A stretch of 64,000 nt of DNA from a bacterium (GTDB taxonomy: Bacteria; Electryoneota; JAOADG01). Each line of letters opens with the position of its first letter. Positions within the stretch are counted from its first letter, which is position 1. Below the pieces are notes generated by a model. It searched no databases. It had not been told where the DNA came from and was given only the letters and a program-made list of their open reading frames with translations. The DNA lies in NCBI GenBank assembly GCA_963681965.1, contig OY820579.1, positions 768,001 to 832,000 on the forward strand. Direction: 5' to 3'. Position numbers and translations under genes: made by a program. This document shows positions 9,094 through 28,297 of the stretch, piece by piece.

Positions 9094-9161
9094 AAGACAG
9101 GGTATCAGGGTAATCCAAAAATCCTTGTATCGTGCGGAGTCTCGCGGAGATTCGAACTCTC
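9094..9161 (-). repeat. Degenerate copy of tRNA-Ser 3' end + terminator (array site, decayed hairpin)
   Basis: gggtatcagggtaatccaaaaatcctt..gtgcggag..ggagattcgaactctc aligns to 28174-28235. Confidence 0.75.
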
Positions 9162-9516
9162 AGTGCAGATAAACCATACTTCGTACTAATAAACTACAGT
9201 GATCTATCACTAGTCAACGTTCAAGTAATCAAGATATTCTGCTTTCAGATATCTAAAACTACAATCATCGAATTGGACACTTGACATAAAATTTCCCTTA
9301 ATCAGATGGAAAAATCCGAATTTGTATCTAATTTGAGACAGTAACTTGGTCGGGAACCCGTATCGATTCATGCTTACTGATTTCGCCGATAACTTCACAC
9401 ACTTCTTTCGAACCGTTCCAACATTCGATCGTAGCGTAAAAAAATGTGCATTTGGAAAACATCCGTTGATACTCTTTGCCAGTTTAGTTTAATAGAAATT
9501 GGAATGGAGGGTTGTT

Positions 9517-10689
9517 ATGCGGTCGGTATTTTTCATTATTCTCATTGTTCTGATAACCTCTTCTGAATTGCCCGCGCAGCACTGGGTAATGCAAACTTCT
9601 CCCAATCGAACCCGGTTGAATCGAGTTGCATTTGTCGATACAAGTAATGGCTGGGCGGTTGGCAACTCGGGGTTGATTATCCATACCTCGAATCATGGTA
9701 TCAGTTGGAATATCCAAACCAGCAATACCCCAAAGACGCTGCGAGATCTAGCATTCGTTAGTCCATCAACCGGATGGGTAGTCGGCGACAGTGGTTTGAT
9801 CTTACACACTACCGACAGCGGGAATAGTTGGAATCCGCAGATTAGCGGCACATTGAATTTTCTCAATGGTGTGGATTTTGTCGATTCGCTATACGGGTGG
9901 ACAGTCGGTACGAGTTGGATCGGAGATACGACCAGTGTAATATTGCATACCACCGATGGTGGCAATGTTTGGTCTCGACAATTCTGCGGTTCCGTCGATG
10001 CACTCACTTCCATTCAATTCATCGACCGCGACCATGGTTGGATGTCGCACGATCGTGGTGCCGTGTATCGAACCCAGAATGGCGGCAGCACCTGGCGGGG
10101 TTGCTTTATCGAATGGTCGCTTTTCATGTCGTTGTACCAAGTATCGATGGTCGATTGCGATCATGGTTGGGTTGTGGGTGGCAATGGCGGTATGGTTTTA
10201 CACTCATTCAATGTCGATAGTATCTGGCGTCGCCAACCGAGTGGGATGCTGTATTATTTTTCGGGAGTTGCTAGTATCGACACCAATACTTGCTGGGTGG
10301 TTGGCGAAAATGGCAACATCCGGCACACGCTGAATGGCGGAACCACTTGGCTTCGAGACACGATCGGCATAACAAGAAATATTCGCGGAGTATCTTTTAT
10401 CGATGCGATGAATGGTTGGGCGGTCGGGGACAGTGGAACGATTTTATACTACCATCGTGCTCCGCTGCAAGTCCCTCAGAATTTTACGATCGCAGCCGAT
10501 ACACCGGCAGTAAATCTTAGCTGGTCGGCGGTTCCGGGGGCGGGAATCCAGTATAATATTTATCGTGAAGACGTGCCCTATCACTCATTTCATACTTTGG
10601 TGGGAACGACTTCGGATACGACTTACTTAGACTTAATACAGCCCGCAACGACTTGTCACTATTATGTTGTTCGAGCATATGCACCGTGA
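9517..10689 (+). CDS. YCF48/BNR-repeat beta-propeller secreted protein with C-terminal FN3-like domain
   Basis: Repeats GWAVG..G.ILHTTDGG..W; signal peptide; GGAGG RBS before ATG 9517. Confidence 0.88.
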   Translation: MRSVFFIILIVLITSSELPAQHWVMQTSPNRTRLNRVAFVDTSNGWAVGNSGLIIHTSNHGISWNIQTSNTPKTLRDLAFVSPSTGWVVGDSGLILHTTDSGNSWNPQISGTLNFLNGVDFVDSLYGWTVGTSWIGDTTSVILHTTDGGNVWSRQFCGSVDALTSIQFIDRDHGWMSHDRGAVYRTQNGGSTWRGCFIEWSLFMSLYQVSMVDCDHGWVVGGNGGMVLHSFNVDSIWRRQPSGMLYYFSGVASIDTNTCWVVGENGNIRHTLNGGTTWLRDTIGITRNIRGVSFIDAMNGWAVGDSGTILYYHRAPLQVPQNFTIAADTPAVNLSWSAVPGAGIQYNIYREDVPYHSFHTLVGTTSDTTYLDLIQPATTCHYYVVRAYAP

Positions 10690-10757
10690 GAGACTGTCTG
10701 TTTTAATTGAACAAGATTCGGAAGTGGAGTGAAAAAATTATAGAAAAATTGGATGAA

Positions 10758-11210
10758 TCAGTGTGGCGATACGGTCGGGGATCGACCGGAAATTTGATTC
10801 CGAGAACGTTTCACCGCTCTCTTGGTTTTTGTGTTTCGTTTTGGTGTGGTGTTGAAGAGATAGTGTATGGGAATTCCCAATCCCTCATGAAGTTTCGCAA
10901 TCATCATCTTGCTGAGATTTCGATGACCGGACAACACTTCATAAACCCTGCTACGTGAACCGATAAATGGTTCCAAGTCGCGATTGGTTAATCCTTGCTG
11001 TTCCATAACAAATTTGATCAGGTCGACGGGACTCACATTGACCGTTTTTAGCGAGCTGTGTTCATCATCATAACGTTGCATCAGAACGGCAATCAGTTCT
11101 ATGGTATCTGCTTCCGGCGAATTGGGTAGTGGATTGAGTGCAATCAAGCGATCCAGCTCGACGAGTGCCGCCTGATACTCTTCCGGGGTTTTAATTAGTT
11201 TCAGCACCAT
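10758..11210 (-). CDS. higA: HigA-family HTH antitoxin
   Basis: IKTPEEYQAAL, PVDLIKFVMEQQGL and IGSRSRVYEVLSG..LS..MI.KLH motifs; directly downstream of higB. Confidence 0.88.
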   Translation of the reverse strand: MVLKLIKTPEEYQAALVELDRLIALNPLPNSPEADTIELIAVLMQRYDDEHSSLKTVNVSPVDLIKFVMEQQGLTNRDLEPFIGSRSRVYEVLSGHRNLSKMMIAKLHEGLGIPIHYLFNTTPKRNTKTKRAVKRSRNQISGRSPTVSPH

Positions 11211-11218
11211 TTCGATGG

Positions 11219-11506
11219 TTACTCCAAGCGCAGTTTGTCGTACTCGGCATGAGTGCCGATCCAAACAATCCGAACGACATTTGCCACGTAGATCGCTTGC
11301 ACAATCAATCGATGTTTATTACCGCGAACATTGAAAATGACCCGATTATCGTGTAGAAAACTCGCTGTTGCAAAGCGCTGTTTGATTTCATGGCTAGTTT
11401 TCCATTTGGCTTCCGAAACCAGCAACACCCAAGCTTTCAGCGCAACTGCCGCATCGGGATGTGATCTTGCATATTGATCGAGTATTGTTCGGTTCGCGAT
11501 CAGCAT
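11219..11506 (-). CDS. higB: HigB-family toxin (mRNA interferase)
   Basis: RVIFNVRGNKHRLI...WIGTHAEYDK signature. Confidence 0.92.
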   Translation of the reverse strand: MLIANRTILDQYARSHPDAAVALKAWVLLVSEAKWKTSHEIKQRFATASFLHDNRVIFNVRGNKHRLIVQAIYVANVVRIVWIGTHAEYDKLRLE

Positions 11507-11520
11507 AATCTAATATACGG

Positions 11521-11539
11521 TGTTCCCATATTGGGAACA
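11521..11539. promoter_or_regulatory. Putative HigA operator palindrome
   Basis: TGTTCCCA-TAT-TGGGAACA inverted repeat ~15 bp upstream of higB; type II TA operons are typically autorepressed. Confidence 0.65.
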
Positions 11540-11553
11540 AGTCGGTTTCAGTC

Positions 11554-11592
11554 AAAAAAGAAACCGTGTTTCAGAACAACACCCTGAAACCC
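11554..11592 (-). repeat. Degenerate copy of tRNA-Ser terminator/core site (array site)
   Basis: gtgtttcagaa-caaca-ccctgaaaccc at 11566-11592 with an upstream A-tract. Confidence 0.65.
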
Positions 11593-11649
11593 AGTTTTAT
11601 TCTTATGATTGATTTCAAGAAACGCACGACGTTCACCCACCACCCCTCC

Positions 11650-12573
11650 TTATCCCATCATCGGCAGGAGTTGTTCGATCCGATTGATCGCTGCAGCTTC
11701 GATCTGTTGCGCTTCCTTCAGCAGCTCTATCTTCTTTTCGCTAGATATTGACTTGTCGCTGACCTGATACAAGGCTTCGGCGATTTGCGTGTAATCCGCG
11801 ATAAAAGGTTCCGTGACTGCGGCAAACAGCGGATACTTCGTGCCGATTTCCTGAAAATACTTCACTGCGAGTTTTCGACTTTCGGTCCACACCATTCCGT
11901 TCCACCAGTTTCCATGCTCGCTACCGTGACCGGACTCGACCCCTTTGATCCAGTTGGCATATGCGCCACTTCCAGTCGCATAGGGTGCATGTGAATACTT
12001 TTGCGGGTTGCGATGGAAATCGACTGCCAGCTTGAGGCTATCGCGGATCACGGTGAGTTCTTTGGCAGGCGTTGCTTTCGCAAACGAGAAGAACTCGACG
12101 TGACATTCGTCTTTTATTTCCTCCCAACTACCGAACGTCAGATGCGCCGGTGGAAAATCGGTCACTTGCGGCGCCCACGGCTGTGCGGTCAAGAAACCGG
12201 TGTCGTCGTACCCGGTGATCAGTTGATGCTCCATATTGCTGAGTGAACAAGGGATTCCCTGATCGAGCTTTTCAATCAACAGCGCGTCGAGTTGTTGCCG
12301 TTCTTCCAACGAATTGTTCATCGTATACGATCCGTGGACGGACATCACGATCCCGAGGTTCTCGATCCGCCGAATTGTTTCGCGCATATCCCAGCAGTAC
12401 GGTCCGCTGGGACAAATCTCCTCATGCACATTCATCAGAAACGCGAATCCGCTGCCACCAAACAACCAGGGGGTACTGACCTCGATCTTGAAATAATCGC
12501 TGACACCATGCAGTACTCCGATCAACGTGGAACAATAAGGTGGCATCGTAAGATTTGGTAGGTTTTTTGTCAT
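11650..12573 (-). CDS. Hypothetical protein, possibly BtrH-N / papain-like fold
   Basis: Long ORF with GAGG RBS; EHQLITGYDD resembles C39/BtrH-like motifs (inference). Confidence 0.6.
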   Translation of the reverse strand: MTKNLPNLTMPPYCSTLIGVLHGVSDYFKIEVSTPWLFGGSGFAFLMNVHEEICPSGPYCWDMRETIRRIENLGIVMSVHGSYTMNNSLEERQQLDALLIEKLDQGIPCSLSNMEHQLITGYDDTGFLTAQPWAPQVTDFPPAHLTFGSWEEIKDECHVEFFSFAKATPAKELTVIRDSLKLAVDFHRNPQKYSHAPYATGSGAYANWIKGVESGHGSEHGNWWNGMVWTESRKLAVKYFQEIGTKYPLFAAVTEPFIADYTQIAEALYQVSDKSISSEKKIELLKEAQQIEAAAINRIEQLLPMMG

Positions 12574-12656
12574 GACGGTTTCCTCGGTATGATTACTTTA
12601 TAAAATAACTAATCGCGATAAAAGACTCAACCTGTGAAATACGATTCTCATCAAAA

Positions 12657-13643
12657 TTACTGCGGTGGACTAACCAAAGTGATTACGACATTTCCTTTTT
12701 TGTGTCCAAGGTCGACATAGCGATGCGCTTCAGCAATTTGCTCTAACGGGTATCGTCGATCGATCACGGCTCGATATTTACTCTGTTCGAATAAATCCTT
12801 CAGGATACTTAGATCGGATATTTTTTCGCTGTGCGAACGTAAACCGGTTGCGTGAAATTTTGCTTTCTTGCTTCCGGCAATCGAGGTCATTAGGACACTT
12901 ACTATCATTCCGAATGATATCCCTGCCTCGAGAAAAATCCCATTCGCTTCCAATGAACGTTTGCACTGCGAAAAAGAAATCTTGCCCACAGTATCGAAGA
13001 TGATGTGGTATTTCTCACCACTCTTGCTAAAATCTTCTTTGGTATAGTCGATCACTTTATCCGCGCCGATGGATTTAACCAACTCCAGATTTGTTCCACT
13101 ACACACTCCCGTGACTTCCGCGCCGAAGAATTTGGCTAGTTGCACGGCGGCAGTGCCGACACTACCGGAAGCGCCATAAATTAGAACCTTTTGCCCACTC
13201 TGGATTTTTCCCTTATCTCGCAAAAAAGGCAATGCGGTTAAGACACCATCGACGCTGGCAGCAGCTTCTTCAAAAGAAATGCTGACGGGCTTAATAGTAA
13301 GTTCGCCGTTTTCAGGTAGACAGATGTATTCTGCATTGGCGCCAAATTTGGGACCGGTAGATCCGAAAACTTGGTCGCCGTTTTTGAAACGGGTCACATT
13401 ACTTCCAATTGCAACGATCTCACCGCCGAACTCTTCGCCAAGAGTATTCAATTTTGGTTTTGTGAAACCCATAAATAATCTTGAGATAAATGGCTTTCCC
13501 TGTCGGAAAATACATTCAGTGGCTGTGACTGTTGTTGCGTGAATTTTTATCAACACTTCGTTGGGCTTCGGAGTTGGTTGATCCACTTCGCGGATCTGGA
13601 TGACATCTGGTGACCCATACTTGGTGACTATCGCTATTTTCAT
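12657..13643 (-). CDS. NAD(P)-dependent alcohol dehydrogenase-like MDR family oxidoreductase
   Basis: GQKVLIYGASGSVGTAAVQLAK, VIDRRYPLEQI and GHKKGNVVI. Confidence 0.92.
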   Translation of the reverse strand: MKIAIVTKYGSPDVIQIREVDQPTPKPNEVLIKIHATTVTATECIFRQGKPFISRLFMGFTKPKLNTLGEEFGGEIVAIGSNVTRFKNGDQVFGSTGPKFGANAEYICLPENGELTIKPVSISFEEAAASVDGVLTALPFLRDKGKIQSGQKVLIYGASGSVGTAAVQLAKFFGAEVTGVCSGTNLELVKSIGADKVIDYTKEDFSKSGEKYHIIFDTVGKISFSQCKRSLEANGIFLEAGISFGMIVSVLMTSIAGSKKAKFHATGLRSHSEKISDLSILKDLFEQSKYRAVIDRRYPLEQIAEAHRYVDLGHKKGNVVITLVSPPQ

Positions 13644-13789
13644 GCCGCTATTTTTCCAAATTAGAAGTATTCAGGAGACGACTATTCTCGCACCGGATTC
13701 ATTTTGCTAAGTCGATGATTTGTATTTTGATACTGTAAGTTAAGTGGAGTTAATAAACTGGTTGGTTGCACTACTTCTCCTCGTATTCT

Positions 13790-13857
13790 AAATGGATTGC
13801 AGGGATAAGTCCTGAAACCCCTCAAAATCTGGAGCGGAGGTCTTCTAGGATTGAGAA
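13790..13857 (-). repeat. Degenerate copy of tRNA-Ser 3' end + terminator (array site)
   Basis: ggattgcaggg-ataag-tcctgaaaccc..atctggagcggagg versus native atctggtgcggaga. Confidence 0.75.
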
Positions 13858-13891
13858 TTTTCAGTAGATTGAGGTCATTCCTTCGGTATGT

Positions 13892-14803
13892 TTACAAGCC
13901 CAAAGCTTCTAAGATCGGCTTCTCATATTCACCATCTTCTCCCGGATAACGTAAATTCTGCGCGCCATTGTCAACGGCAATCTGGCGAAGGATACTCTCT
14001 CCTGCCGGCATTGATCGTGGTTCGATCGAATAAACAGGGTCTGCAAACGCTTCCTCAGGATCGATAATCATCCAACCATTCGAATGGTACATCGCGATAA
14101 TATCCTTAAGGAAAAACGCGTTAATTTGGTTGTGATGTAACAGAAGGATGTGCTTAACCGATCTGCCGAGATACTTTTGTGACAGACTGTCGTAGAAGAC
14201 TGAGCGATTCCAAAGGTGATTAAGATAGGCGGTTTTTAATTTCTGTAGATCATAATCAGGAGTTTGTGTGAGACGCTTTACCATCCAATCGTCATAGAAC
14301 CAATCGCTGGCGTCAATCGAGACGGGCGCTGATCGGTAATCAATCGACTTCATAAATTGGCGGAATTGATCGCGTTTATCGAGTGTGTTTCCCTCTTTCA
14401 AGTAAGTAAATCGGAAGAGTTTCCGGTACCCATAAAGCTTCGAGATGGCAGAATCGCAACCGAGTACTTCCTTTTCGTAATCCTCAAGTGACACTTTTTG
14501 GCTGTTAAAGTACGGGTGATGCACCGTGTGATTTCCGATCAGATGTCCCTCGATACCCCATTGCCGGATCAATTTCATTTGCAGAGCGCCACCGTTCCGG
14601 ATAGTAACGAATAAAATGGCTTTTACACTGTCGGCATGAAGTTGCGAAAGAATGGCATTATTCCGGGCAGTGACGGAGACGCCTGCGCGATCCGCCATTA
14701 GGGGTCCGTCGTCAAAAGTGAATGCGATGGATCGAGCAGATACGGATGAACAAATACAGATACAGGTTACAAGAGCACATACCGAATGGAGGAAAAATCG
14801 CAT
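13892..14803 (-). CDS. Polysaccharide deacetylase (NodB/CE4) family, exported
   Basis: AFTFDDGP, GNHTVHH and LLLH motifs; signal peptide. Confidence 0.9.
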   Translation of the reverse strand: MRFFLHSVCALVTCICICSSVSARSIAFTFDDGPLMADRAGVSVTARNNAILSQLHADSVKAILFVTIRNGGALQMKLIRQWGIEGHLIGNHTVHHPYFNSQKVSLEDYEKEVLGCDSAISKLYGYRKLFRFTYLKEGNTLDKRDQFRQFMKSIDYRSAPVSIDASDWFYDDWMVKRLTQTPDYDLQKLKTAYLNHLWNRSVFYDSLSQKYLGRSVKHILLLHHNQINAFFLKDIIAMYHSNGWMIIDPEEAFADPVYSIEPRSMPAGESILRQIAVDNGAQNLRYPGEDGEYEKPILEALGL

Positions 14804-15180
14804 TGAATTCTCACGCTAATCGAATATTAATGATCACTGGTAAGATAATGAAGTCAGATTGCGAATTAAACATTATTCAGAAATTAAGTTAAACCGATCC
14901 AGCACTACTAGAAGCGAATGCACGTTGAGGTAGAAAAAAATCTTAATCCGATTTAATCGTCACTCCGATCTCGCTTTGCGTTAATGATCGAGTTGTTTTT
15001 CCGACGGCAACATCTGCCTTTGCCGAGATTCGGTCTCTAACAATAAATACTGCATTGGTATCTGTGCCCTTTCGATCCAATCGCTCGCGTATCCCATCAG
15101 TATCTCCCTCCTTATCTTAAATTCTGACTAAATTTTTGGGATTGTGAATCGGAGGGGGCAACTCAAGAGGGAAGACTGGA

Positions 15181-16299
15181 TCAAGACTGTTCAATCAGTT
15201 TTGGAAGTGTTATTGATACAGTTGTTCCTTGCCCTATCTGACTTTTAATTACTAAACTCCCTTGATATAGCTCCGTTAGTTCGCGAGCAATAACTAAACC
15301 CAACCCTAAACCCTGCTGTTCAAACGTTTCACGATCGAATTGATTAAATGAATTGACGCATTCTATTTGTTCAGGTAGCATGCCTCGTCCGACATCTGAA
15401 ACCTGTATTAATATAGTATTTCCTAAATCATGAGTTGTTACAACAACCATCGATGAAGTATTAGAGAATTTTAACGCGTTATCTAGAATTTCTTCAAGTA
15501 TTTTTTTTAAATGAATTGATGAAATCCGTAGAATGTAATCCTGAATAATTAGCCTTATGTCATTCGGGCGTTGATATTGTTTCATCAAAGACGTTGAAAT
15601 TGTCGTTATTATGTCGATCAACGAAGTCAATCCATCAGATATTAAATTCTCAACGCAAATAGTATTCAATTTCCAGTAATAAAGTTGATTCATTAATAGA
15701 ACATTCTCTAACATATGAAGAAGTCGCTGACCAGACCGATAAATCCGATTACCAAATTTTGGAATATCATCTGATGGAATATTGTTAACCTGCATCATAA
15801 CTTGAGCATACCCAAGAATCGAGCTAAGGGGAGTCCGAAACTCATGGGGAAGCGTGTAGAAGATCATATTCCTAACTTCTTTGAACTGAACGTCATAATA
15901 ATCCTGTAGAGAGTCCCTTTTTTTTAACTGTGTTGCCACACAATCAACAAGCTCCTGCACAGTCAGTGGTTTTATCAGGTAATCGTCCGCACCTAAGTAC
16001 ATTCCATGTCGAATTTCATGTTTCTCTCCGCGGCTTGTAAGGAACACAAACGGGATATTGTCGAAATAGTGTTTCTCTTTTAGCTTTTTCAAGAACGAAT
16101 AACCATCCATTATAGGCATGCTGATATCACACAGAATCATTTTCGGGTTTGAGGCGTCTAATCGCTCCAACCCTTCCTCTCCATTCTGGGCTTGGATGAT
16201 TTTATACCCAGCAAACTCAAGTGTTTGAACGATAAGTTGACGCGTCTCATCTTCATCGTCAACGACAAGAATCAACGATTTTTCACTGACTGGTTTCAT
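15181..16299 (-). CDS. Hybrid response regulator / histidine kinase
   Basis: N-terminal REC (ILVVDDE, ILCDISMP, YLIKP); H-box LPHEFRTPL; LDNALKFS and GLGLGL; start taken at MKPVSEK. Confidence 0.9.
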   Translation of the reverse strand: MKPVSEKSLILVVDDEDETRQLIVQTLEFAGYKIIQAQNGEEGLERLDASNPKMILCDISMPIMDGYSFLKKLKEKHYFDNIPFVFLTSRGEKHEIRHGMYLGADDYLIKPLTVQELVDCVATQLKKRDSLQDYYDVQFKEVRNMIFYTLPHEFRTPLSSILGYAQVMMQVNNIPSDDIPKFGNRIYRSGQRLLHMLENVLLMNQLYYWKLNTICVENLISDGLTSLIDIITTISTSLMKQYQRPNDIRLIIQDYILRISSIHLKKILEEILDNALKFSNTSSMVVVTTHDLGNTILIQVSDVGRGMLPEQIECVNSFNQFDRETFEQQGLGLGLVIARELTELYQGSLVIKSQIGQGTTVSITLPKLIEQS

Positions 16300-16410
16300 T
16301 ACTTGAACTCCAAATTGCCATGAAATTCCAATGACCATATTTACGTGTAAAGTCGCTGCGATCTTCTATTTCCGGACAGGAATTTCGCAAACCTGTGTGT
16401 CATATCATCT

Positions 16411-21021: not shown

Positions 21022-21136
21022 AATGGCTCCCGATTATTCAGACACGTTCATGCATTGTTCAATATAATAAATCGATCGATTTGGAACCATAAATTCGAAT
21101 TTACTTGACAATTCTGTTCGACCGATACCAATCAAC

Positions 21137-21204
21137 AAAAAGGGTTTCGGGACAATATCCTGAAACCCTTATGCATTGCGGAGATTGGTGGATTCTGGTT
21201 TCGG
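21137..21204 (-). repeat. Degenerate copy of tRNA-Ser 3' end + terminator (array site)
   Basis: aaaaa-gggtttcggga-caata-tcctgaaaccc-ttat..tgcggagattggtggattc. Confidence 0.88.
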
Positions 21205-21207
21205 TCG

Positions 21208-22281
21208 CTACTTGGTCAAGATCATTTTCTTGGTAGTCGTAAAGTTACGAGTCGACAACGTGTAAAAGTAGTTACCGGTCGGCAGACCGGTCGCATTGAA
21301 CTCAACTTTATAGGTGTTGGGCGTGTGAATGCCGTTCACGAGTTCTGCGACCGATTGACCCGTTTCATTGAATACCGACAGCTTCACTAGACCAGTCTCG
21401 TGGATGCTGTAGGTAATGCTGGTGGACGGGTTGAAAGGGTTGGGGTAATTCTGAGCCAGATTGTATTTGATCGGGATTTCACCCAGCGCCTTGACTGCTG
21501 GCGTCGCATTGATGACAAATCGACTCATTTTTTCGATACCATCAAGCGATACGTCGGCAATACGATAATAATAAGTGGTTCCATTGATAACGCGAGTGTC
21601 TTCGAAGGAATATTCATTGGGTGTGGAAGATGTGCCATGTCCAGTCACCTGCGTAAGCAATTCGCCGGTTGCATCTGCAGTGGTTGAGCGATAGAGGTTG
21701 AAATGCGCGTTGTTGATTTCGGTCTCGGTTCGCCAGCGGAGCATGACTTGGTGATCGGCACCCACGGCAGTAAACGACGTCATTTCTACCGGAAGCACAT
21801 TGTTGTTGAATTCGAGCTCCGCTAAATGAAATGTACCTGAATAATAGGTGCCGGTCGATAGCTTGATTTCCCAGATGCCGTTCGGATTTACACCATTGAA
21901 AAGAAAATTCAAATTGCCACCGGTGTTGTAGAATCCGGTAAACGGACTTGCGCCGGCATTCATCGCTATCGGAGAACCGTCCCAAAACACGGTATTCGTC
22001 AGATTTACTCCATTAGACAAATTCAGGACTACTTGTTCGGCACGACCCGGCGCTTTAATCAGTAGCGTCAACTGTCCGATCTGATCGTAGGTCACGTTCA
22101 GTCGGACTTTCAAACTGGTGATTGCCGTGATTGGCGTCGAGACGTTGACGAAGACATGTCCCATGTTGTAAGTACGGATCTGGTCGGATGCGGTTGAACT
22201 GAACATCGGTGTAAAAGATGCAGCCATCGCAATTGTACTGCTGAAAAGCACGGCAAGTATCGCAAATCTAACAAGCTTCAT
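21208..22281 (-). CDS. Secreted protein: proprotein-convertase P-domain-like + FN3-like + C-terminal sorting domain
   Basis: LKVRLNVTY..IGQLTLLIKAPG, NPNGIWEIKL, LPVEMTSF, LAQNYPNPFNPST. Confidence 0.82.
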   Translation of the reverse strand: MKLVRFAILAVLFSSTIAMAASFTPMFSSTASDQIRTYNMGHVFVNVSTPITAITSLKVRLNVTYDQIGQLTLLIKAPGRAEQVVLNLSNGVNLTNTVFWDGSPIAMNAGASPFTGFYNTGGNLNFLFNGVNPNGIWEIKLSTGTYYSGTFHLAELEFNNNVLPVEMTSFTAVGADHQVMLRWRTETEINNAHFNLYRSTTADATGELLTQVTGHGTSSTPNEYSFEDTRVINGTTYYYRIADVSLDGIEKMSRFVINATPAVKALGEIPIKYNLAQNYPNPFNPSTSITYSIHETGLVKLSVFNETGQSVAELVNGIHTPNTYKVEFNATGLPTGNYFYTLSTRNFTTTKKMILTK

Positions 22282-22379
22282 AATTGCTCCTCTAGGTTGT
22301 TCGGTTGAATTTAAGATCGTCGGTTATTACTTATATCGATTCAATCGGCTGGGAGCTTTATTGAGGTTGGTAAAACCAC

Positions 22380-22453
22380 AAAAAAAAGGCTTCAGGACGA
22401 TATCCTGAAACCAATTAACAATGCGGAGAGACTTCCGGGGATTCGAATCTTGG
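22380..22453 (-). repeat. Degenerate copy of tRNA-Ser 3' end + terminator (array site)
   Basis: aaaaaa-aggcttcagga-cgata-tcctgaaacca..tgcggagag-acttcc-ggggattcgaatc. Confidence 0.9.
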
Positions 22454-22462
22454 TTGGCGAAA

Positions 22463-22942
22463 TTATTCCCCGTTGAACGCTCGCTCGAGCACGGCAATAT
22501 CCAATTTTTTCATCGGGAACATCGCTTGTGCCATTCGATTCACTTTCTGTGGATCGGGATCGCTGAACATTTCACCCAGTTGGTGTGGGACGATCTGCCA
22601 CGACAAACCGAACCGATCGATCAACCAGCCGCATTGACTCTCTTGACCACCGTCGGCAGTCAGCTTGTTCCACAATTCATCGATTTCTGCCTGCGAATCG
22701 CACTCGACATGGAGTGAAAATGCTTCGTTCAATTTGTAATGCGGACCGCCATCGATTGCCATATAGGTCACCCCGTCCAACTCGAACAGTGCCGTGAGCA
22801 CTTTCCCCTTCATCTCCGGCATGAAGTCACCATAACGCGTGATCGATATGATGCGGGAATTTTGGAACAGCGATACATAGAAATTGATCGCTTCTTCGGC
22901 GTTACGGTCGAACCAGAGAAAGGGGGTAATTTTCTGTTTCAT
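22463..22942 (-). CDS. VOC family protein (PhnB / 3-demethylubiquinone-9 3-methyltransferase-like)
   Basis: KITPFLWFD..AEEAINFY and CGWLIDRFGLSWQIVP. Confidence 0.92.
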   Translation of the reverse strand: MKQKITPFLWFDRNAEEAINFYVSLFQNSRIISITRYGDFMPEMKGKVLTALFELDGVTYMAIDGGPHYKLNEAFSLHVECDSQAEIDELWNKLTADGGQESQCGWLIDRFGLSWQIVPHQLGEMFSDPDPQKVNRMAQAMFPMKKLDIAVLERAFNGE

Positions 22943-23288
22943 GGTAAGCATTCCAGTTAGATGATTGAAAAAATGTAATACGATATATTCGGAAAGCAGA
23001 CAAACCAGTTTGCGCTATCTCGATCACTGCCATTTGTGATTTTAGTTCAGTATTAATATATAAGTGGTTATTAAAGCTTATATTGCGCACATTATTACAT
23101 CAAAACCAAATACCTTAAACGTTTTATTGCCAGAAAGCCAAAATTTAACTAAATTAGTTAATGCTTAACTGAATTTGAAGAAAAAAGATAAAATATAATC
23201 ACTATAACCAAACTTGTTTAATAAATTTAGATGGCATTGCCGCGCATTTAAACAAAATAAAGAGAGCTTAACTGTTTTAGAGGTAAAG

Positions 23289-24815
23289 ATGAACGATTTA
23301 ACTCTTGCCGATGAATCAACCAGACCGTTAGGTTATGTGGCACTCTGCCATCGATACCAGATCGATCCGGTAACCTTGTGGCACGAATCGTTTGTGTCCC
23401 GAAGTGGAGTACATAGTAAGCTTGATCATGATGATAAGATAACAGAGATCTTTCCGTTACAGTACGATCCGGGGGATCGGGATTGCGACCAACTTGCATT
23501 CGCTCTGAAATATGATGGTGTGAATCTCGCCCTTCTGACTCAACTTTTTGCGAGAATGCCAGTATCCGAGCTGGTTGCGTACATACAAGAAACACCGCTC
23601 GGCAAGTTTCGTCGGCAGATCTGGTACTTCTATGAGTTTCTAACGGGAAACCGGCTCCCAATCGATGATCTGCCACCACGAGGCGGGTATGTTGACTTAC
23701 TCGATCCAGAGGTGTATTACACGATCTCGCCAACCACCCCAATCCGTCGTCAACGTATCAACGAGAATTTGCTCGGAGATCGCCGGTTCTGTCCGATCAT
23801 TCGCAAATCGGATACGTTAAAGAAGCACAATGATACGGATTTCCGCAAGAAGATGGACGAAATTGTTGCTCAATATCCCAAAGATCTACTCACCCGGGCG
23901 ATGAGCTACTCGTTTACAAAAGAAACAAAATCATCGTTCGAATTGGAAAAAATCACCCCTTCGGTTCCGAAAACGGAGCGGTTCGTTGCACTTCTGCTTG
24001 ATGCCGAGCGGGTAGATTATTGTGTGAAGAGTCAACTGATCGAATTGCAAAATCGAATCGTCGACAATCGATATCGACAAACGGATTATCGTAGCGATCA
24101 GAACTACATCGGTGAGATAATCGATTCTGGTCGCGAACGAGTACATTATGTCTGTCCCAAGCCGGCGCATATTCATGAGCTTATGGCTGGTCTTCTCACT
24201 AGTCATTTGCGACTAGAGAAGGGAGGTGTACCCCCTATCGTACATGCGGCGATCGTTGCCTTTGGTTTTGTTTATCTGCACCCCTTCGACGATGGCAATG
24301 GTCGTATTCACCGCTTTCTAATCCATAATGTGTTAGCCCGGCGCGGCATTACTCCACCGGGTATGATCTTTCCCATTTCCGCGGTGCTGGTAAACAATAA
24401 ACACGATTACGATCATGCCTTGGAAGTACTCTCGAAACCGATCATGAGTGTCGTCGATTACAAGTTGGATGAAGATGGGTGTATGAGTGTTGAAAACGAC
24501 ATCTCGTATTTCTATCGTTACATGGACCTTACGGTCCAAACCGAGTATCTGCATCGTTTCATACAGATTGCGATCGAATGTGAGGTAGTACAGGAGTTGG
24601 CATTTCTCGTAAATTACGATGTCGTCAAGGAACGCATTCAGGATGTTGTGGATATGCCTGAACGTAAGCTCAATCTGTTTATCAGAATTTGCCGCGAGAA
24701 TCGTGGTCGCTTGTCGAAAGCGAAGCGTAATGATCACTTCGACGAGCTGAGCGACGAAGATGTCGCGAAGTTAGAGGCAATTATACGCGAAGGTTTTACC
24801 GTAGAGGAAATGTAA
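23289..24815 (+). CDS. Fic family protein
   Basis: Canonical HPFDDGNGRIHR motif; start placed at ATG 23289 after a GAGG RBS. Confidence 0.9.
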   Translation: MNDLTLADESTRPLGYVALCHRYQIDPVTLWHESFVSRSGVHSKLDHDDKITEIFPLQYDPGDRDCDQLAFALKYDGVNLALLTQLFARMPVSELVAYIQETPLGKFRRQIWYFYEFLTGNRLPIDDLPPRGGYVDLLDPEVYYTISPTTPIRRQRINENLLGDRRFCPIIRKSDTLKKHNDTDFRKKMDEIVAQYPKDLLTRAMSYSFTKETKSSFELEKITPSVPKTERFVALLLDAERVDYCVKSQLIELQNRIVDNRYRQTDYRSDQNYIGEIIDSGRERVHYVCPKPAHIHELMAGLLTSHLRLEKGGVPPIVHAAIVAFGFVYLHPFDDGNGRIHRFLIHNVLARRGITPPGMIFPISAVLVNNKHDYDHALEVLSKPIMSVVDYKLDEDGCMSVENDISYFYRYMDLTVQTEYLHRFIQIAIECEVVQELAFLVNYDVVKERIQDVVDMPERKLNLFIRICRENRGRLSKAKRNDHFDELSDEDVAKLEAIIREGFTVEEM

Positions 24816-24934
24816 AAAAATGGGTGAGTGTCGTCTCACCAGCTCTAATTTTGCCGCGTGATGTGGTCGAATTACTGACCGTCCTTCAATGCGACCCTTT
24901 CTGATAGTAAATCTGTAAGTAGTATCCTAAACAC

Positions 24935-24970
24935 AAAAAAGGGCTTCAGGAACCGGTCCTGAAACCCTTG
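24935..24970 (-). repeat. Copy of tRNA-Ser terminator/core site (array site); probably also a terminator between convergent genes
   Basis: aaaaaa-gggcttcagga-accgg-tcctgaaaccc-tt; arms identical to the native copy at 28174-28200. Confidence 0.9.
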
Positions 24971-24994
24971 TACGACGAAGCATCATCGACGAAT

Positions 24995-25423
24995 TCACGA
25001 GTCGGTGGATGACCTGTTTGCATACTTGCGATACGCCTCGCGCCCCTCGGAATTCCACCAGGCATCATATCCCTTCCAATCCTCGATCTCGTCGTCGTCG
25101 CCATTACCGCGGCGGGACGGTTTGTGAATTGAGATACCCGGTGCCTCGATACTCACTTCTTCATGATCGCAACACTCGTGTTTGTGTTTCCATTTACCGT
25201 GGTGATTCATGCTGCCGAACAGGAATCTGCCCAGTATCATCAAACCGAATGCCTGCCAATAGGTGATTTGCTTCAGCGCGAACAGATCCGGCATCAGCCA
25301 GTTCCACAACCACATCACCACGAATCCGAATACCAATGCGAAAATCACTGCGGCGAAGACTCCACCGACTACTTTCACCGCGAATCGCGGCTTGTGGCGA
25401 TGTACATGAATATGAGCGTTCAT
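24995..25423 (-). CDS. ECF-associated small membrane protein
   Basis: VVMWLWNWLMP..F.L..ITYWQA.GL.IL.R.LFG; ATGA overlap with the upstream sigma stop fixes the start at 25423. Confidence 0.75.
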   Translation of the reverse strand: MNAHIHVHRHKPRFAVKVVGGVFAAVIFALVFGFVVMWLWNWLMPDLFALKQITYWQAFGLMILGRFLFGSMNHHGKWKHKHECCDHEEVSIEAPGISIHKPSRRGNGDDDEIEDWKGYDAWWNSEGREAYRKYANRSSTDS

Positions 25424-25977
25424 TTTGTTTGATCCTCTTCGATTAAATCTGCCAATGCTTTTTGTAACGACGCCTCTGCCCGGTGTTTGCGCGAGAGCAG
25501 GGTCCCGATGGGGATGTGCCACAACTCCGACAATTCCCGGAACGCATACCCATCCAATTCCGTCGCAACCCAAACGGCACGTTGTTTGGGCTCCAACTGA
25601 TCCAGTGCCGCCACCAATCGTCGTTGGGTCTCCCGCTGATTCAGTACCGTTTGCATATCGTACTGCAATGCGGGATGCGTCTCCTCCAGCGAAGGCTTGC
25701 CTTCCGGGGGAACTTGGCTTAATGAGACTTGGTGCTTCCGATGACGGAGATAGTCGATTGTCCGAAATTGAATCGATCGGTAGATGTATGCGCCGAGGTT
25801 TTCGATTCGTTCACCGATATCTACCTGATTGAAGAGATCGATCATCAAGCCGCTGACAATGTCCTCGACTTCCATCGTCGACAAAGATTCATACTTCGCC
25901 CGGAATGTTTTCACCAGCTTCTGATATTGGTTGCTGAAGAATTGGCTAAGGTTGTTGTGTTGTTCTTGTTTGGTCAT
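25420..25977 (-). CDS. ECF RNA polymerase sigma-70 factor
   Basis: Region 2 (EDIVS..M..LF, AYIYRSI..RTIDYLR) and region 4 (L...QRAVW..ELDG..F.ELS....IPIGTLLSRKHRA). Confidence 0.88.
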   Translation of the reverse strand: MTKQEQHNNLSQFFSNQYQKLVKTFRAKYESLSTMEVEDIVSGLMIDLFNQVDIGERIENLGAYIYRSIQFRTIDYLRHRKHQVSLSQVPPEGKPSLEETHPALQYDMQTVLNQRETQRRLVAALDQLEPKQRAVWVATELDGYAFRELSELWHIPIGTLLSRKHRAEASLQKALADLIEEDQTK

Positions 25978-26009
25978 GTCTCGGTTATGATCTCATCCTC
26001 TATCGGTAT

Positions 26010-26035
26010 GACGAATCAGCGAGGGTATTTATTGC
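26010..26035 (-). promoter_or_regulatory. Candidate autoregulatory ECF promoter
   Basis: GCAATA-N16-CGTC on the minus strand, ~35 bp upstream of the sigma gene. Confidence 0.45.
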
Positions 26036-26165
26036 ATCAGAGATTTTACTGAAGTTAGGATAAAAAACAGCGTGGGAGAACTAGCGTCGGTGCTTCGAAG
26101 TAACTCGCGCGCATGGGGAGATAGAAATCTCGATTCATTTTGGCGGAATAATTAGTTGACAACGA

Positions 26166-26224
26166 CCTAAAAAAAGGACTTCAGGACACGATCTTGGAAC
26201 TCTGATCCGGTATGGATATTCGCG
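26166..26224 (-). repeat. Decayed copy of tRNA-Ser 3' end + terminator (array site)
   Basis: cctaaaaaaa-ggacttcagga-cacga-tcttggaactc-tgatccggtatggata, colinear with native cctaaaaaa-gggcttcagga-taatt-tcctgaaaccc-ttatctggtgcggaga. Confidence 0.8.
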
Positions 26225-26351
26225 ATGTGTTCCGTTTCGGGTATCTGGCATTTTTAAAAACCATATTGATATAACAAACGAATATAACTTATATTACGTA
26301 CGTTATTTCAGGGTTTTTATCCACAACCAAACATCAGTCTATGGAGGGTTC

Positions 26352-26993
26352 ATGAGAAAATTAGCTATGTTGGTCGTTCTGTTCACAATTGCAATGACCG
26401 CAATGACAGCTAACGCTAAAATCGGTTTCGACGTTGGACTTCGTCTTAGTTCGCTGGGATACGGTGTCGAAGTCAGTAAAACGGTTTTTAAGAAATTAGA
26501 CACCCGTGCCACGTTCCAACTGGGAAGTTATCAAACGGATGGCACGATCGAATCGAAAGAGTTGAAGTACGACACGAAGTTTAATTTGTCGTCGTGGAGT
26601 CTCTTGGCCGATTATCACGTTTTTGGGGGCAACTTCTTTACCACTGTCGGCGTGATCGGTAATGGTAATAAGATCGACGCTACAGTGGGCCCATCCGCAT
26701 CGCGTCGGATCGGTAGCCGAACTTATACAGCCACAGAGCAGGGATCACTGACCGCGAATATCACGTGGCCTTCGATGGCCCCTTACGTTGGTGTCGGCTT
26801 TGGCGGACAACAGTCAAATGAGGGTCATTGGCGATTCGAGTTGGGTGCGATGTTTCAAGGTTCTCCCAAAGTCAGCATGAGTGGTACCGGAATGATTGCA
26901 CCGTCCGCCGCTAACGCTCCCACTTTGGAAGACGATCTCGCCGGCGCCAAGACTTGGCTTGTCACAAGTATCAGCTACCGGTTCAGCCTCTAA
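26352..26993 (+). CDS. Outer-membrane beta-barrel protein (probably 8-stranded)
   Basis: Signal peptide; amphipathic strands (SSLGYGVEVS, APYVGVGFG); C-terminal ISYRFSL. Confidence 0.75.
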   Translation: MRKLAMLVVLFTIAMTAMTANAKIGFDVGLRLSSLGYGVEVSKTVFKKLDTRATFQLGSYQTDGTIESKELKYDTKFNLSSWSLLADYHVFGGNFFTTVGVIGNGNKIDATVGPSASRRIGSRTYTATEQGSLTANITWPSMAPYVGVGFGGQQSNEGHWRFELGAMFQGSPKVSMSGTGMIAPSAANAPTLEDDLAGAKTWLVTSISYRFSL

Positions 26994-27014
26994 GCTTGGA
27001 AAGGAACAATACAC

Positions 27015-28085
27015 ATGAAAACGAAAAAAATAACTCTGCTGTTTACTCTGGTGGGTGCGTTGTTGCTCCTCGCGATGGGCTGCTCGGTTAAGAATCCCAA
27101 CGACAGCTTCAATCTCCTGGTGGAAGGCTCTTTTGAAAAAGCGATTATGGATAGCCTTCAGACGTCTGCTACCGGCTTGGATACAACACTCGTAACGAAT
27201 CAGCGGCTGATTGGGACAAGTTCATCAGACGAAACAAATGCTACGGGCGTTATCGTCGTTCCACTGTCAATGACTTTAGCACGAAGCATTGCAGCTCTTC
27301 TTCACAGTGGTAGTAGTTTAATACAAATCATTAGCGGTTCTGTTATTAACAATTCGACCAATTCTTTAGACTTCTTTGTGTACTTGGATACGAGCAGTAC
27401 GTATGGTACCGGGATTTCAGCTCGCACGAGTTCGAAAATTTGTAGCTTACACGTGAATGTGGGTACTTCAAGTGAAATGCTTGAAAATGGGACGTATTTT
27501 AATACTACTTTCAACTCGTCAATGCTGGGTAGTAGGAACAACCCGCGCCTTGTGTTTCTGTACCTTGTGGTGATTGGAAACCCAACTGCGGATCTCACAA
27601 TTGAAACGATGCGTTTAACAGTACCACCAAATATTGCTGTTATCGGTAACGTAACTCCCAATGATGTGAGTCAATACACACTGGAGGACTTGTCTGAGAT
27701 CGGGTTGGGTGGTACAATTAGGGCAGGTGCTGGTTCTGCGAACAATGTTGACTCACTTCTCGTTACCTTTGCCTGCAAATCGGGCACTGGTACCGATACG
27801 ACGATAACCGGTTTAACAACGATTGGATCTGTCATAGCTCGCCGTACAGACTACACAACCAATGGTTTCATTGTATCAATCGATTCACTCTCGAGTCAAA
27901 TCCTCGGTAACGCTACGGGAAGGGCTGCATTGATGGCACGCTTTCGGGAGTTATTCCCCCCCACAAGTCTTGGGAGTTTCTTCCGGGTTGACATCACTGC
28001 TTACCACAGAAACTCGTCTCAAGTGATGCCTTTTCATGTCAACGATCTTCGCATTATCACGAATGCACAGGTTAGGCGAAACTAA
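27015..28085 (+). CDS. Hypothetical lipoprotein
   Basis: Lipobox LAMGC; AAGGA RBS; co-oriented with the OMP gene. Confidence 0.75.
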   Translation: MKTKKITLLFTLVGALLLLAMGCSVKNPNDSFNLLVEGSFEKAIMDSLQTSATGLDTTLVTNQRLIGTSSSDETNATGVIVVPLSMTLARSIAALLHSGSSLIQIISGSVINNSTNSLDFFVYLDTSSTYGTGISARTSSKICSLHVNVGTSSEMLENGTYFNTTFNSSMLGSRNNPRLVFLYLVVIGNPTADLTIETMRLTVPPNIAVIGNVTPNDVSQYTLEDLSEIGLGGTIRAGAGSANNVDSLLVTFACKSGTGTDTTITGLTTIGSVIARRTDYTTNGFIVSIDSLSSQILGNATGRAALMARFRELFPPTSLGSFFRVDITAYHRNSSQVMPFHVNDLRIITNAQVRRN

Positions 28086-28108
28086 CGGAACCCACCTATA
28101 ATCGTGAA

Positions 28109-28137
28109 GCGGGTCGGAGATACTCCGACCCGTTTTC
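28109..28137 (+). terminator. Intrinsic terminator
   Basis: GCGGGTCGGAG-ATA-CTCCGACCCGT-TTTC. Confidence 0.75.
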
Positions 28138-28167
28138 ATTGAAAACTCGATCTTATTTTTACGCCCT

Positions 28168-28200
28168 AAAAAAGGGCTTCAGGATAATTTCCTGAAACCC
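28168..28200 (-). terminator. tRNA operon terminator; prototype of the dispersed repeat
   Basis: GGGUUUCAGGA-N5-UCCUGAAGCCC-UUUUUU on the minus transcript, 10 nt after tRNA-Ser(GGA). Confidence 0.88.
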
Positions 28201-28210
28201 TTATCTGGTG

Positions 28211-28297
28211 CGGAGAGTGGGGGATTCGAACCCTCGGTACGGTTTCCCGTACGCACGCCTTCCAAGCGTGTGCCTTAAACCACTCGGCCAACTCTCC
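28211..28297 (-). tRNA. tRNA-Ser(GGA)
   Basis: GGAGAGT acceptor stem; CACGC-TTGGAAG-GCGTG anticodon arm; long variable arm; GGTTCGAATCC T-arm; G discriminator. Confidence 0.96.

What the first reader, a model, noticed from the sequence alone, without database searches (positions are those of the whole stretch)
9094..28297. tRNA-Ser-anchored, integrase-less gene-cassette array punctuated by degenerate copies of the tRNA 3' end + terminator
Seen: the sequence next to tRNA-Ser(GGA) (A6-GGGCTTCAGGA-N5-TCCTGAAACCC-TT-N6-TGCGGAGAG..GGATTCGAA, 28168-28230) recurs in the same orientation at ~26166, 24935, 22380, 21137, 13790, 11554 and 9094. Every copy is intergenic and at a module boundary. Units reading outward: OMP+lipoprotein (~2.0 kb), ECF+partner (~1.2), Fic+VOC (~2.5), P-domain secreted protein (~1.2), signalling cluster+deacetylase (~7.3), MDR+hypothetical (~2.2), HigBA+YCF48 (~2.4). 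I recognise no integrase, transposase or phage gene in any unit or elsewhere in the window. Established: integrative elements that target tRNA 3' ends displace a tRNA fragment at each insertion, and tandem islands exist, but such elements normally carry their own integrase and are larger. Inference: serial capture of minimal cassettes at one tRNA by a recombinase acting in trans, functionally like an integron but with a tRNA-derived site.
Basis: partly seen in the sequence, partly recalled or inferred. Interest (0 to 1): 0.92.

Follow-up and report, generated by a model that had tools for sequence, protein, structure and literature searches.

The report
Fossil island array behind tRNA-Ser
Behind one serine tRNA gene lie seven small gene blocks, each ending in a worn copy of the tRNA's tail and its terminator, which look like scars of repeated insertions by mobile elements that have since lost their integrases, a pattern already known from other bacteria.

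Summary
The tRNA-Ser(GGA) 3' end plus its terminator hairpin recurs 7 times, same strand, within 19 kb downstream of the tRNA and nowhere else in the 4.24-Mb genome. The copy at 11554 is the weakest, and the copies at 26166 and 24935 keep almost no tRNA part. No integrase gene or coding remnant lies in the window.

The integron-like reading is not supported. A same-family relative (G003) has a tyrosine integrase directly behind the same tRNA, followed by small integrase-less units bounded by 73-, 45- and ~32-nt tRNA pieces. G000 itself has four islands of this integrase family behind other tRNAs, with perfect 45-47-nt repeats. One has a decaying tandem copy whose integrase is being lost. One G000 copy keeps a worn integrase-leader motif. 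Ten of 79 genomes of the phylum carry partial tRNA-Ser(GGA) copies.

Best reading: a fossil array from serial site-specific integration. The hairpins were kept where they terminate a gene. Capture of integrase-less units in trans (CIME-like) is not excluded. The kind is known: Dehalococcoides ssrA islands and Prochlorococcus tycheposon islands.

The parts
28210..28297 (-). Intact tRNA-Ser(GGA), the attachment site that seeds the array
   Evidence: ARAGORN; Rfam tRNA at 51.1 bits
28419..28738 (-). tRNA-Ser(GCT) and tRNA-Ser(TGA) upstream of Ser(GGA). This side is syntenic with relatives.
28166..28204 (-). Spacer, 13-bp hairpin and T-run right after the live tRNA. This is the reference copy and a terminator (-20.5 kcal/mol).
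26250..28165 (+). Unit 1: two + strand ORFs (26352..26993, weak porin-like hit; 27015..28085, no family hit)
26162..26250 (-). Repeat copy 1. tRNA part 13/40, hairpin decayed (-2.7 kcal/mol). No co-directional gene reads into it.
25015..26160 (-). Unit 2: ECF sigma factor (25420..25977) and a 192-aa partner (24995..25573)
24927..25014 (-). Repeat copy 2. Perfect 13-bp hairpin (-20.5 kcal/mol); tRNA part unrecognisable (10/39).
24896..24919 (-). Worn integrase-leader double motif (CTTACAGATTTACTATCAGAAAGG) just after copy 2. It matches 21 of 24 bases of the post-hairpin motif of G003 fragment 2.
   Evidence: score z 8.3; 0 of 300 shuffles reach it; motif defined
22465..24895 (.). The latter is shared with the congener G001 (81% aa over 42 aa).
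22373..22462 (-). Repeat copy 3. tRNA part 25/41, hairpin -16.3 kcal/mol.
21215..22372 (-). Unit 4: one gene, a secreted protein with a T9SS sorting domain (21208..22281)
21128..21213 (-). Repeat copy 4. tRNA part 21/37, hairpin -16.7 kcal/mol.
13873..21127 (-). Unit 5: 94-aa ORF, PAS histidine kinase, two response regulators, a hybrid kinase and a polysaccharide deacetylase. GC 41.5%, 1st percentile of the genome.
13780..13872 (-). Repeat copy 5. tRNA part 18/40, hairpin -10.6 kcal/mol.
11634..13779 (-). Unit 6: MDR zinc-type dehydrogenase (12657..13643) and a 307-aa ORF with no family hit
11552..11633 (-). Repeat copy 6, the weakest. Hairpin only (-14.2 kcal/mol); tRNA part 7/43, about random.
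9172..11551 (.). Unit 7: HigB toxin (11219..11506, -), HTH antitoxin-like protein (10758..11264, -) and a YCF48-like BNR protein (9499..10689, +)
9086..9171 (-). Repeat copy 7, the most distal. tRNA part 26/39, hairpin decayed (-3.5 kcal/mol). No co-directional gene reads into it.

Best explanation
This is a fossil accretion array. Integrative elements of one related group inserted repeatedly, by site-specific recombination, into the 3' end of tRNA-Ser(GGA).

How it works:
- Each such element carries, in its attachment site, a copy of the tRNA's last ~45 nt, a spacer, a terminator hairpin, a short GCTAAY double motif and then a tyrosine integrase gene.
- Each insertion rebuilt the tRNA from the element's copy and pushed the previous tRNA tail plus hairpin further downstream. 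The repeats are therefore old attachment-site scars, and the newest unit lies next to the tRNA.
- The integrase genes were later lost and the tRNA pieces decayed.
- The hairpins survived where they act as transcription terminators for the gene that reads into them.
- In this genome the array is now fixed, ordinary chromosome carrying accessory genes.

Shown: the repeats and their restriction to this locus; the absence of integrase; integrase-bearing and integrase-less units at the same tRNA in relatives; the leader remnant.

Inferred: the order of events, the loss of integrases, and the terminator role.
For: 1. Locus-specific, same-strand repeats of tRNA tail plus hairpin.

2. G003 (same family) has, behind the same tRNA, an integrase (Phage_integrase E 4.8e-35). 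After it come a 73-nt perfect tRNA piece, mrr, a 45-nt perfect piece with the same spacer and hairpin as in G000, an NnrU-like gene, and a ~32-nt piece plus hairpin.

3. G000 has 7 paralogues of that integrase (36-51% identity).
- Four lie 70-100 nt behind tRNA-His, Arg(ACG), Arg(TCT) and Pro(GGG).
- Those four islands have perfect 45-47-nt direct repeats 5-31 kb away.
- All have the GCTAAY motif between tRNA and integrase.

4. A leader-motif remnant follows the hairpin of copy 24935. It matches 21 of 24 bases of the G003 fragment-2 motif (z 8.3, 0 of 300 shuffles). G003 fragments 2 and 3 show the same motif without an integrase.

5. Erosion can be seen directly. Distal to the Arg(ACG) island lie a degenerate tRNA piece, an intact leader and an integrase start with an in-frame stop.

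6. The tRNA cluster is a synteny break. Upstream genes are collinear in G001, G002 and G003, and the downstream genes of G003 are not.

7. G000 and its congener G001 share the glyoxalase-fold ('VOC') gene but differ in the units nearer the tRNA, as accretion at the tRNA predicts.

8. The site is a hotspot. Ten of 79 genomes of the phylum have internal partial 3' copies of this tRNA. G022, G059 and G067 have an integrase beside the tRNA or a piece of it.

9. Hairpin stability follows use.
- The 5 copies with a co-directional gene reading in fold at -10.6 to -20.5 kcal/mol.
- The 2 copies without such a gene fold at -2.7 and -3.5 kcal/mol.

10. The same model is published for other bacteria.
Against: - Not one of the 7 units keeps any integrase coding remnant. 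Random decay might be expected to leave some.
- Units are very small and tidy (1.1-2.5 kb, one of 7.3 kb). The first gene often starts about where the integrase would.
- In G003 the 979-nt mrr unit lies between a 73-nt and a 45-nt perfect repeat. It therefore looks young, yet it has no room for an integrase.
- G070 has a 2.7-kb integrase-less unit between two well-kept 54-56-nt pieces.
- The leader remnant is significant in only 1 of the 8 G000 copies, and a genome-wide profile scan did not recover it. Arm-type sites would also be needed by a unit moved in trans.
- Decay of the copies does not rise steadily with distance from the tRNA.
- Only unit 5 has clearly foreign GC content.
Confidence: 0.7

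Rival explanations
1. The units were integrase-less when captured. These would be small att-flanked modules (cis-mobilizable elements or satellites). An integrase supplied by a neighbouring or resident element excises them as circles from one array and inserts them at tRNA-Ser(GGA). The tRNA would then work as a cassette platform.
For: - 0 of 7 units in G000 has any integrase trace.
- G003 has a 979-nt mrr unit between perfect 73-nt and 45-nt repeats, next to an integrase-bearing element.
- G001's first unit is a single ~0.45-kb ORF between the hairpin and the next tRNA piece.
- G070 has a 2.7-kb integrase-less unit between two well-kept pieces.
- Every unit is flanked by two att-derived copies, which is what excision in trans needs.
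- McMurdie et al. raise the same possibility for the ssrA islands that lack an integration module (passages).
Against: - The tRNA parts of the G000 copies are 7/43 to 26/39 identical to the tRNA, against perfect 45-47-nt repeats in the genome's live islands.
- None of the 7 resident integrases of the family sits at a Ser tRNA.
- A leader remnant and a decaying integrase elsewhere in the genome show that integrase loss does happen.
- No close relative of the mrr unit was found elsewhere in the phylum: best 46% identity in 79 genomes. No unit has been seen to move.
Confidence: 0.2
2. The copies arose by local duplication or decay of a tRNA gene array, or by spread of a tRNA-derived miniature repeat, and not by insertion of foreign DNA.
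For: - Three Ser tRNA genes stand in tandem here.
- Most units have a GC content typical of the genome.
Against: - Only the 3' part of the tRNA recurs, always with the downstream spacer and hairpin. That is the signature of integration into a tRNA 3' end.
- Relatives show perfect 45-79-nt pieces with an integrase beside the tRNA.
- No copy occurs anywhere else in the genome.
Confidence: 0.04
3. The motif is a generic terminator or REP-type repeat found by chance near the tRNA.
For: It is a hairpin with a T-run, and three copies are picked up by a simple terminator scan.
Against: - Genome-wide it occurs only in these 19 kb, always on one strand.
- Four copies carry recognisable tRNA 3' sequence beside it.
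Confidence: 0.01

Closest known systems
Tandem ssrA-specific genomic islands of Dehalococcoides (McMurdie et al. 2011, PMC3146451; passages read)
   Same: - Several islands stand in tandem downstream of one small-RNA gene, bounded by direct repeats of its 3' end.
- Content is strain-specific and synteny breaks at the site.
- Only 16 of 31 islands have an integration module. The authors discuss the rest as cis-mobilizable or now fixed.
   Different: - There the integrase is a serine recombinase (DsiB, CcrB-like) and the repeat is 20 bp of tmRNA.
- Here the family is a tyrosine integrase and the repeat is ~45 nt of a tRNA plus a terminator hairpin.
- Here units are much smaller, all 7 lack an integrase, and the repeats are decayed.
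Tycheposon-seeded islands of Prochlorococcus (Hackl et al., bioRxiv 10.1101/2020.12.28.424599; passages read)
   Same: - The tRNA acts as a seed and a tyrosine recombinase sits next to it.
- Successive integrations push older elements into the island.
- Partial tRNAs and degenerate elements are scattered through the island.
   Different: - A different phylum.
- I did not test for the replication or packaging modules that define tycheposons.
- That paper reports fragmented integrases in the islands, and none is seen here.
Cis-mobilizable elements (CIMEs) and site-specific accretion in streptococci (recalled from memory; mentioned in the McMurdie passages; review PMC5704250 seen only in search listings)
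   Same: Integrase-less units flanked by att sites, standing in tandem with an integrase-bearing element. G003 looks like this.
   Different: CIMEs keep working attL and attR sites and have been shown to move with a helper. The G000 copies are decayed and no movement has been seen.
Integrons
   Same: An array of small units separated by hairpin-forming repeats in one orientation, at a fixed chromosomal site.
   Different: - No IntI-type integrase, attI or common promoter.
- The repeats are tRNA tail plus terminator, conserved in sequence.
- Genes lie on both strands, and units hold up to six genes.
- Each repeat would stop transcription rather than pass it on.

Membership tests
tRNA-targeted integrative island array (tandem accretion) | An intact tRNA at one end and direct repeats of its 3' part, in the same orientation, downstream | tested here: met
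   Four of 7 copies have recognisable tRNA sequence; all 7 have the hairpin.
tRNA-targeted integrative island array (tandem accretion) | A site-specific integrase in the element next to the tRNA | tested here: not met
   None in the window. Met in relatives at the same tRNA: G003, G022, G059 and G067.
tRNA-targeted integrative island array (tandem accretion) | Synteny break and variable content at the site among relatives | tested here: met
   Only 3 relatives of the family are held, and the contigs of 2 of them end at the tRNA cluster.
tRNA-targeted integrative island array (tandem accretion) | Foreign base composition of the units | tested here: inconclusive
   Only unit 5 is atypical (GC 41.5%, 1st percentile). 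The other six lie between the 19th and 74th percentile.
Cis-mobilizable element (CIME) | No integrase, but intact attL and attR able to recombine | tested here: not met
   Integrase is absent, but the att-derived tRNA parts are 7/43 to 26/39 identical to the tRNA. Units in G003 and G070 have well-kept repeats.
Cis-mobilizable element (CIME) | Excision or transfer with a helper element | not testable with these tools
   Only assembled contigs of 4 runs could be laid. They show no joints at the repeats, and contigs hide rare forms.
Integron | An IntI-type tyrosine recombinase with attI and a common promoter at the head of the array | tested here: not met
   No PF00589 match in the window (six-frame profile search). 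The head of the array is a tRNA gene.
Integron | attC sites: imperfect palindromes conserved in structure rather than sequence, separating mostly promoterless single ORFs of one orientation | tested here: not met
   The repeats share sequence (hairpin 20-25 of 29) and end in a T-run. ORFs lie on both strands and units hold 1-6 genes. No attC model was available to run.
Tycheposon | A tyrosine recombinase beside one of a set of island tRNAs, plus replication or packaging modules | not tested
   The integrase-bearing elements of G000 and G003 were not annotated beyond the integrase and its neighbours.

The most novel reading that the evidence does not exclude
In this small phylum tRNA-Ser(GGA) would serve as a capture platform for minimal, integrase-less 'promoter plus ORF' modules of 0.5-2.5 kb. 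Each module would carry only a tRNA-tail-plus-hairpin attachment site and would be moved in trans by a family of tRNA-targeting tyrosine integrases. That would be a tRNA-based counterpart of an integron, with the hairpin doubling as terminator and as part of the recombination site.
Probability: 0.12. Interest if true: 0.7.

Novelty: new member of a known kind. Interest (0 to 1): 0.35.

Why it matters
It is a clean, well-bounded example of how a tRNA gene seeds a flexible genome region. The lineage is little studied: a phylum with only 79 species genomes held here.

Three points go a little beyond the textbook picture:
- The whole tail-spacer-terminator module of the attachment site is copied at each insertion.
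- The terminators appear to be kept by selection after the elements die, which is why the scars are still visible.
- Very small integrase-less units recur in three families' worth of genomes (G000, G001, G003, G070).

For annotation, it flags about 19 kb of accessory genes as horizontally acquired. These include a Fic protein, HigBA, an ECF sigma pair and a two-component cluster. It does not open a new mechanism unless single-unit mobility is shown.

Tried and rejected
Generic REP or terminator: rejected. The motif is confined to this locus.

Known RNA family: none. Rfam at E up to 0.1 over 8500-29000 found only the three tRNAs. It also found RF04351 matches on the + strand across parts of two of them (Ser(GGA) and Ser(GCT)), which I take to be an artefact.

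Integrase remnants in the units: none found by tblastn or by a profile of 8 integrases against six-frame pieces.

Leader-motif profile scanned genome-wide: it did not recover the array copies at E up to 20. Only the restricted pairwise test was significant, for 1 of 8 copies against G003 fragment 2. A second score (G000 Pro-element leader against copy 9094, z 4.8) I did not follow up.

Public runs:
- 5 runs from 2 studies hold the stretch. I laid 4 of the 5.
- X1 and X2 each have a 33-kb contig identical over 8600-28239/28252. X4 and X5 have short identical pieces.
- No joint falls at a repeat. The joints listed lie in the PAS repeat, between tRNA genes of other organisms, or have short sides.
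- These are contigs, so this shows nothing about rare excision. Uncovered bins in X5 are low depth, not deletions.

Searches that gave nothing useful:
- Exact hairpin pattern in genome contigs: 20 loci. I checked 4 for tRNA genes (no Ser tRNA); from the record titles the rest look like chance matches in unrelated taxa.
- First metagenome pattern: 0 hits.
- Second metagenome pattern: 30 loci, of which 1 (L098) is a true relative, identical to G001.
- The search for related loci with the G003 integrase and with LptG returned only distant proteins.
- mrr unit of G003 in 79 genomes of the phylum: best 46% identity, so no test of cassette mobility was possible.

MDR gene beside a tRNA-Ser piece in G008: only 51% identical to the G000 MDR protein, so no evidence of a shared cassette.

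Search for degenerate pieces behind all 47 tRNAs with the 3' 50 nt alone: it finds only the young islands and misses even the Ser array, so it says nothing about old arrays elsewhere.

Alignment A2 from the CM search mixed in reverse-strand echoes and other tRNAs, so I did not count covariation on it. The compensatory changes I noted in hairpins of G001 and G003 are by eye.

Supplementary files of the two papers were not opened; they may list more island examples.

Full report
**What is there**

The window holds three serine tRNA genes on the minus strand. Ser(GGA), at 28210-28297, is the last in the direction of transcription. Directly after it come a 6-nt spacer, a 13-bp hairpin and a T-run. 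It folds at -20.5 kcal/mol.

Allowing two substitutions per arm, the hairpin matched 7 places in the 4.24-Mb genome on both strands. Five are in this locus and the two elsewhere are poor.

I also ran a leave-out test with an nhmmer profile built from only four copies. Apart from those copies and their reverse-strand echoes, its best hits in the whole genome were the left-out copies at 26167 (E 3.3e-5), 9098 (E 0.0057) and 13792 (E 0.041). All are on the same strand. The first unrelated hit scored E 0.27. The copy at 11560 scored only E 0.79.

The copies differ in quality:

| Copy | Identity of tRNA part to the live tRNA |
|---|---|
| 9094 | 26/39 |
| 22380 | 25/41 |
| 21137 | 21/37 |
| 13790 | 18/40 |
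| 26166 | 13/40 |
| 24935 | 10/39 |
| 11554 | 7/43 |

The hairpin part is 20-25 of 29 in all seven. All copies lie between ORFs. Rfam knows nothing here but the tRNAs.

**The units**

- ECF sigma factor
- Fic
- a PAS kinase with response regulators
- a polysaccharide deacetylase
- an MDR dehydrogenase
- HigB with an HTH protein
- a YCF48-like BNR protein

Two labels need correction. The 'P-domain' protein carries a T9SS sorting domain. The 'OMP + lipoprotein' pair is barely supported.

No integrase is present:
- 0 of 11 PF00589 matches of the genome lie in the window.
- 0 of 13 tblastn HSPs of the relative's integrase lie in the window.
- A profile of eight integrases against 2363 six-frame pieces of the window gave nothing better than E about 1.

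**What relatives show**

Upstream of the tRNA cluster, gene order is conserved in the three other genomes of the family. Downstream it is not.

In G003 (same family, another genus) the same tRNA is followed by, in order:
- a different hairpin
- a GCTAAT double motif
- a 340-aa tyrosine integrase (Phage_integrase E 4.8e-35)
- two more genes
- a 73-nt perfect piece of the tRNA
- a 979-nt unit holding only mrr
- a 45-nt perfect piece with the very spacer and hairpin seen in G000
- an NnrU-like gene
- a ~32-nt piece with a hairpin variant

The congener G001 could be read across a contig break thanks to an identical metagenome contig, L098. It has the tRNA with hairpin, then one ~0.45-kb ORF, then a worn tRNA piece with another hairpin. 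After that come a 448-aa gene and the glyoxalase-fold ('VOC') gene that G000 also has, at 81% aa identity over 42 residues. The units nearest the tRNA therefore differ between congeners while a more distal gene is shared. Insertion at the tRNA predicts exactly this.

In other families of the phylum:
- G022, G059 and G067 have an integrase beside this tRNA or a piece of it, with 56-79-nt repeats 21-45 kb apart.
- G070 has a 2.7-kb integrase-less unit between two 54-56-nt pieces, each with a hairpin.
- Over the 79 genomes held for the phylum, 10 show internal partial 3' copies of this tRNA at E up to 1e-6, with 2 more ambiguous. That search lists 150 rows and leaves out 11. The worn copies of G000 and G001 are too decayed to be found by it.

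**What the same genome shows elsewhere**

G000 has seven paralogues of the G003 integrase at 36-51% identity. Four sit 70-100 nt behind tRNA-His, Arg(ACG), Arg(TCT) and Pro(GGG). Their islands have perfect 45-47-nt repeats of the tRNA tail 5-31 kb away. All have two or three GCTAAY motifs between tRNA and integrase.

Distal to the Arg(ACG) island lies an older tandem copy. It has a degenerate tRNA piece, an intact leader and the first ~40 codons of the integrase with an in-frame stop. This is integrase loss caught in progress.

**Link to the array**

The sequence after the hairpin of copy 24935 (CTTACAGATTTACTATCAGAAAGG) matches 21 of 24 bases of the motif after G003 fragment 2. The score has z 8.3, and 0 of 300 shuffles reach it. 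That G003 motif aligns with the integrase leaders, and fragment 3 of G003 has a worn version too.

The repeated module is therefore tRNA tail, spacer, hairpin and leader, which is the tRNA-side junction of an integrase-bearing element. The other seven G000 copies (the live one at 28174 and six displaced) show no significant leader, and a genome-wide scan with a leader profile did not find the array.

**Why the hairpins persist**

Five copies have a gene on the same strand reading into them. They fold at -20.5, -16.3, -16.7, -10.6 and -14.2 kcal/mol. The two with no such gene (26166 and 9094) fold at -2.7 and -3.5.

Hairpin variants in G001 and G003 keep pairing through changes on both arms (by eye). 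This fits terminators kept by selection while the useless tRNA pieces decay. The sample is small, and I did not count covariation formally.

**Mobility now**

The tRNA parts are far from the perfect repeats of live islands. No resident integrase of the family sits at a Ser tRNA. Four public runs hold the region only as contigs. Two have a 33-kb contig identical to the window, and no joint falls at a repeat. Contigs cannot show rare events, so this settles nothing.

**Verdict**

The reading 'serial insertion at one tRNA, no integrase left' is right. The reading 'integron-like capture by a recombinase in trans' is not supported.

The most likely history is tandem accretion of related integrase-bearing elements followed by loss of the integrases (confidence 0.7).

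The rival is that some units were integrase-less when they arrived and moved as cis-mobilizable elements (about 0.2). The young, tiny units of G003 and G070 and the total lack of integrase debris keep it alive.

Both belong to a known kind:
- Tandem ssrA islands of Dehalococcoides, where 16 of 31 islands have an integration module and the rest are discussed as cis-mobilizable or fixed (passages of PMC3146451).
- tRNA-seeded islands of Prochlorococcus, with partial tRNAs and degenerate elements (passages of 10.1101/2020.12.28.424599).

I therefore file it as a new member of a known kind, with moderate-to-low interest.

Noticed in passing
G000:C1:2885436-2886590 (outside the window): The integrase closest to the G003 Ser-tRNA integrase (51% identity) follows only the 5' half of a tRNA-Pro(GGG). 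An intact tRNA-Pro(GGG) with a second integrase lies 17.9 kb further on. Its neighbour is 71% identical to the HsdR-like fragment of the G003 element.
   Followed up: partly
G000:C1:2154968-2155340 (outside the window): At the far end of the tRNA-Arg(ACG) island lie a native terminator and then a second, degenerate tRNA piece. An intact GCTAAC leader and an integrase start with an in-frame stop follow. This is a decaying tandem element.
   Followed up: yes
window 18539-19213: Two 300-nt direct repeats (76% identity, 375 nt apart) inside the PAS histidine kinase gene, i.e. duplicated PAS domains. Contigs of public runs show skips and back-joins here.
   Followed up: no
window 28284-28348, 28483-28559, 28764-28813: Each of the three Ser tRNA genes is preceded by a related G-rich stretch (GGTGGKWRGKGGT...). 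A 35-nt exact copy of 28303-28337 occurs at G000:C1:3661503-3661537. The region downstream of tRNA-Thr(CGT) shares a ~25-nt repeat with about 15 places in the genome.
   Followed up: no
window 28211-28253 and 28420-28473 (+): Rfam RF04351 (plastid psbI-rps4 3'UTR) matches the strand opposite the Ser tRNAs, below its gathering score. It probably matches because that family overlaps a plastid trnS.
   Followed up: no
L061 (G008:C1) 9011-10295: In another family, tRNA-Ser(GCT) is followed by a single MDR dehydrogenase gene and then the 3' 53-57 nt of a tRNA-Ser(GGA) with no 5' half. The MDR protein is 51% identical to the one in unit 6 of the window.
   Followed up: partly
L111 (G070:C1) 15495-18286: A 2.7-kb unit of four small ORFs, without an integrase, lies between two 54-56-nt tRNA-Ser(GGA) pieces. 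The first carries the same spacer and hairpin as the live tRNA of G022. No full tRNA lies within the first 32 kb of the contig.
   Followed up: partly
G001:C6, G002:C3, L098 and contigs of runs X1/X2: Assemblies repeatedly break at or just behind the Ser tRNA cluster. G001 and G002 contigs end there, the 668-kb metagenome contig seems to end about 1.4 kb past the tRNA, and the 33-kb contigs end inside the tRNA. This fits a repeat-rich or strain-variable spot.
   Followed up: no
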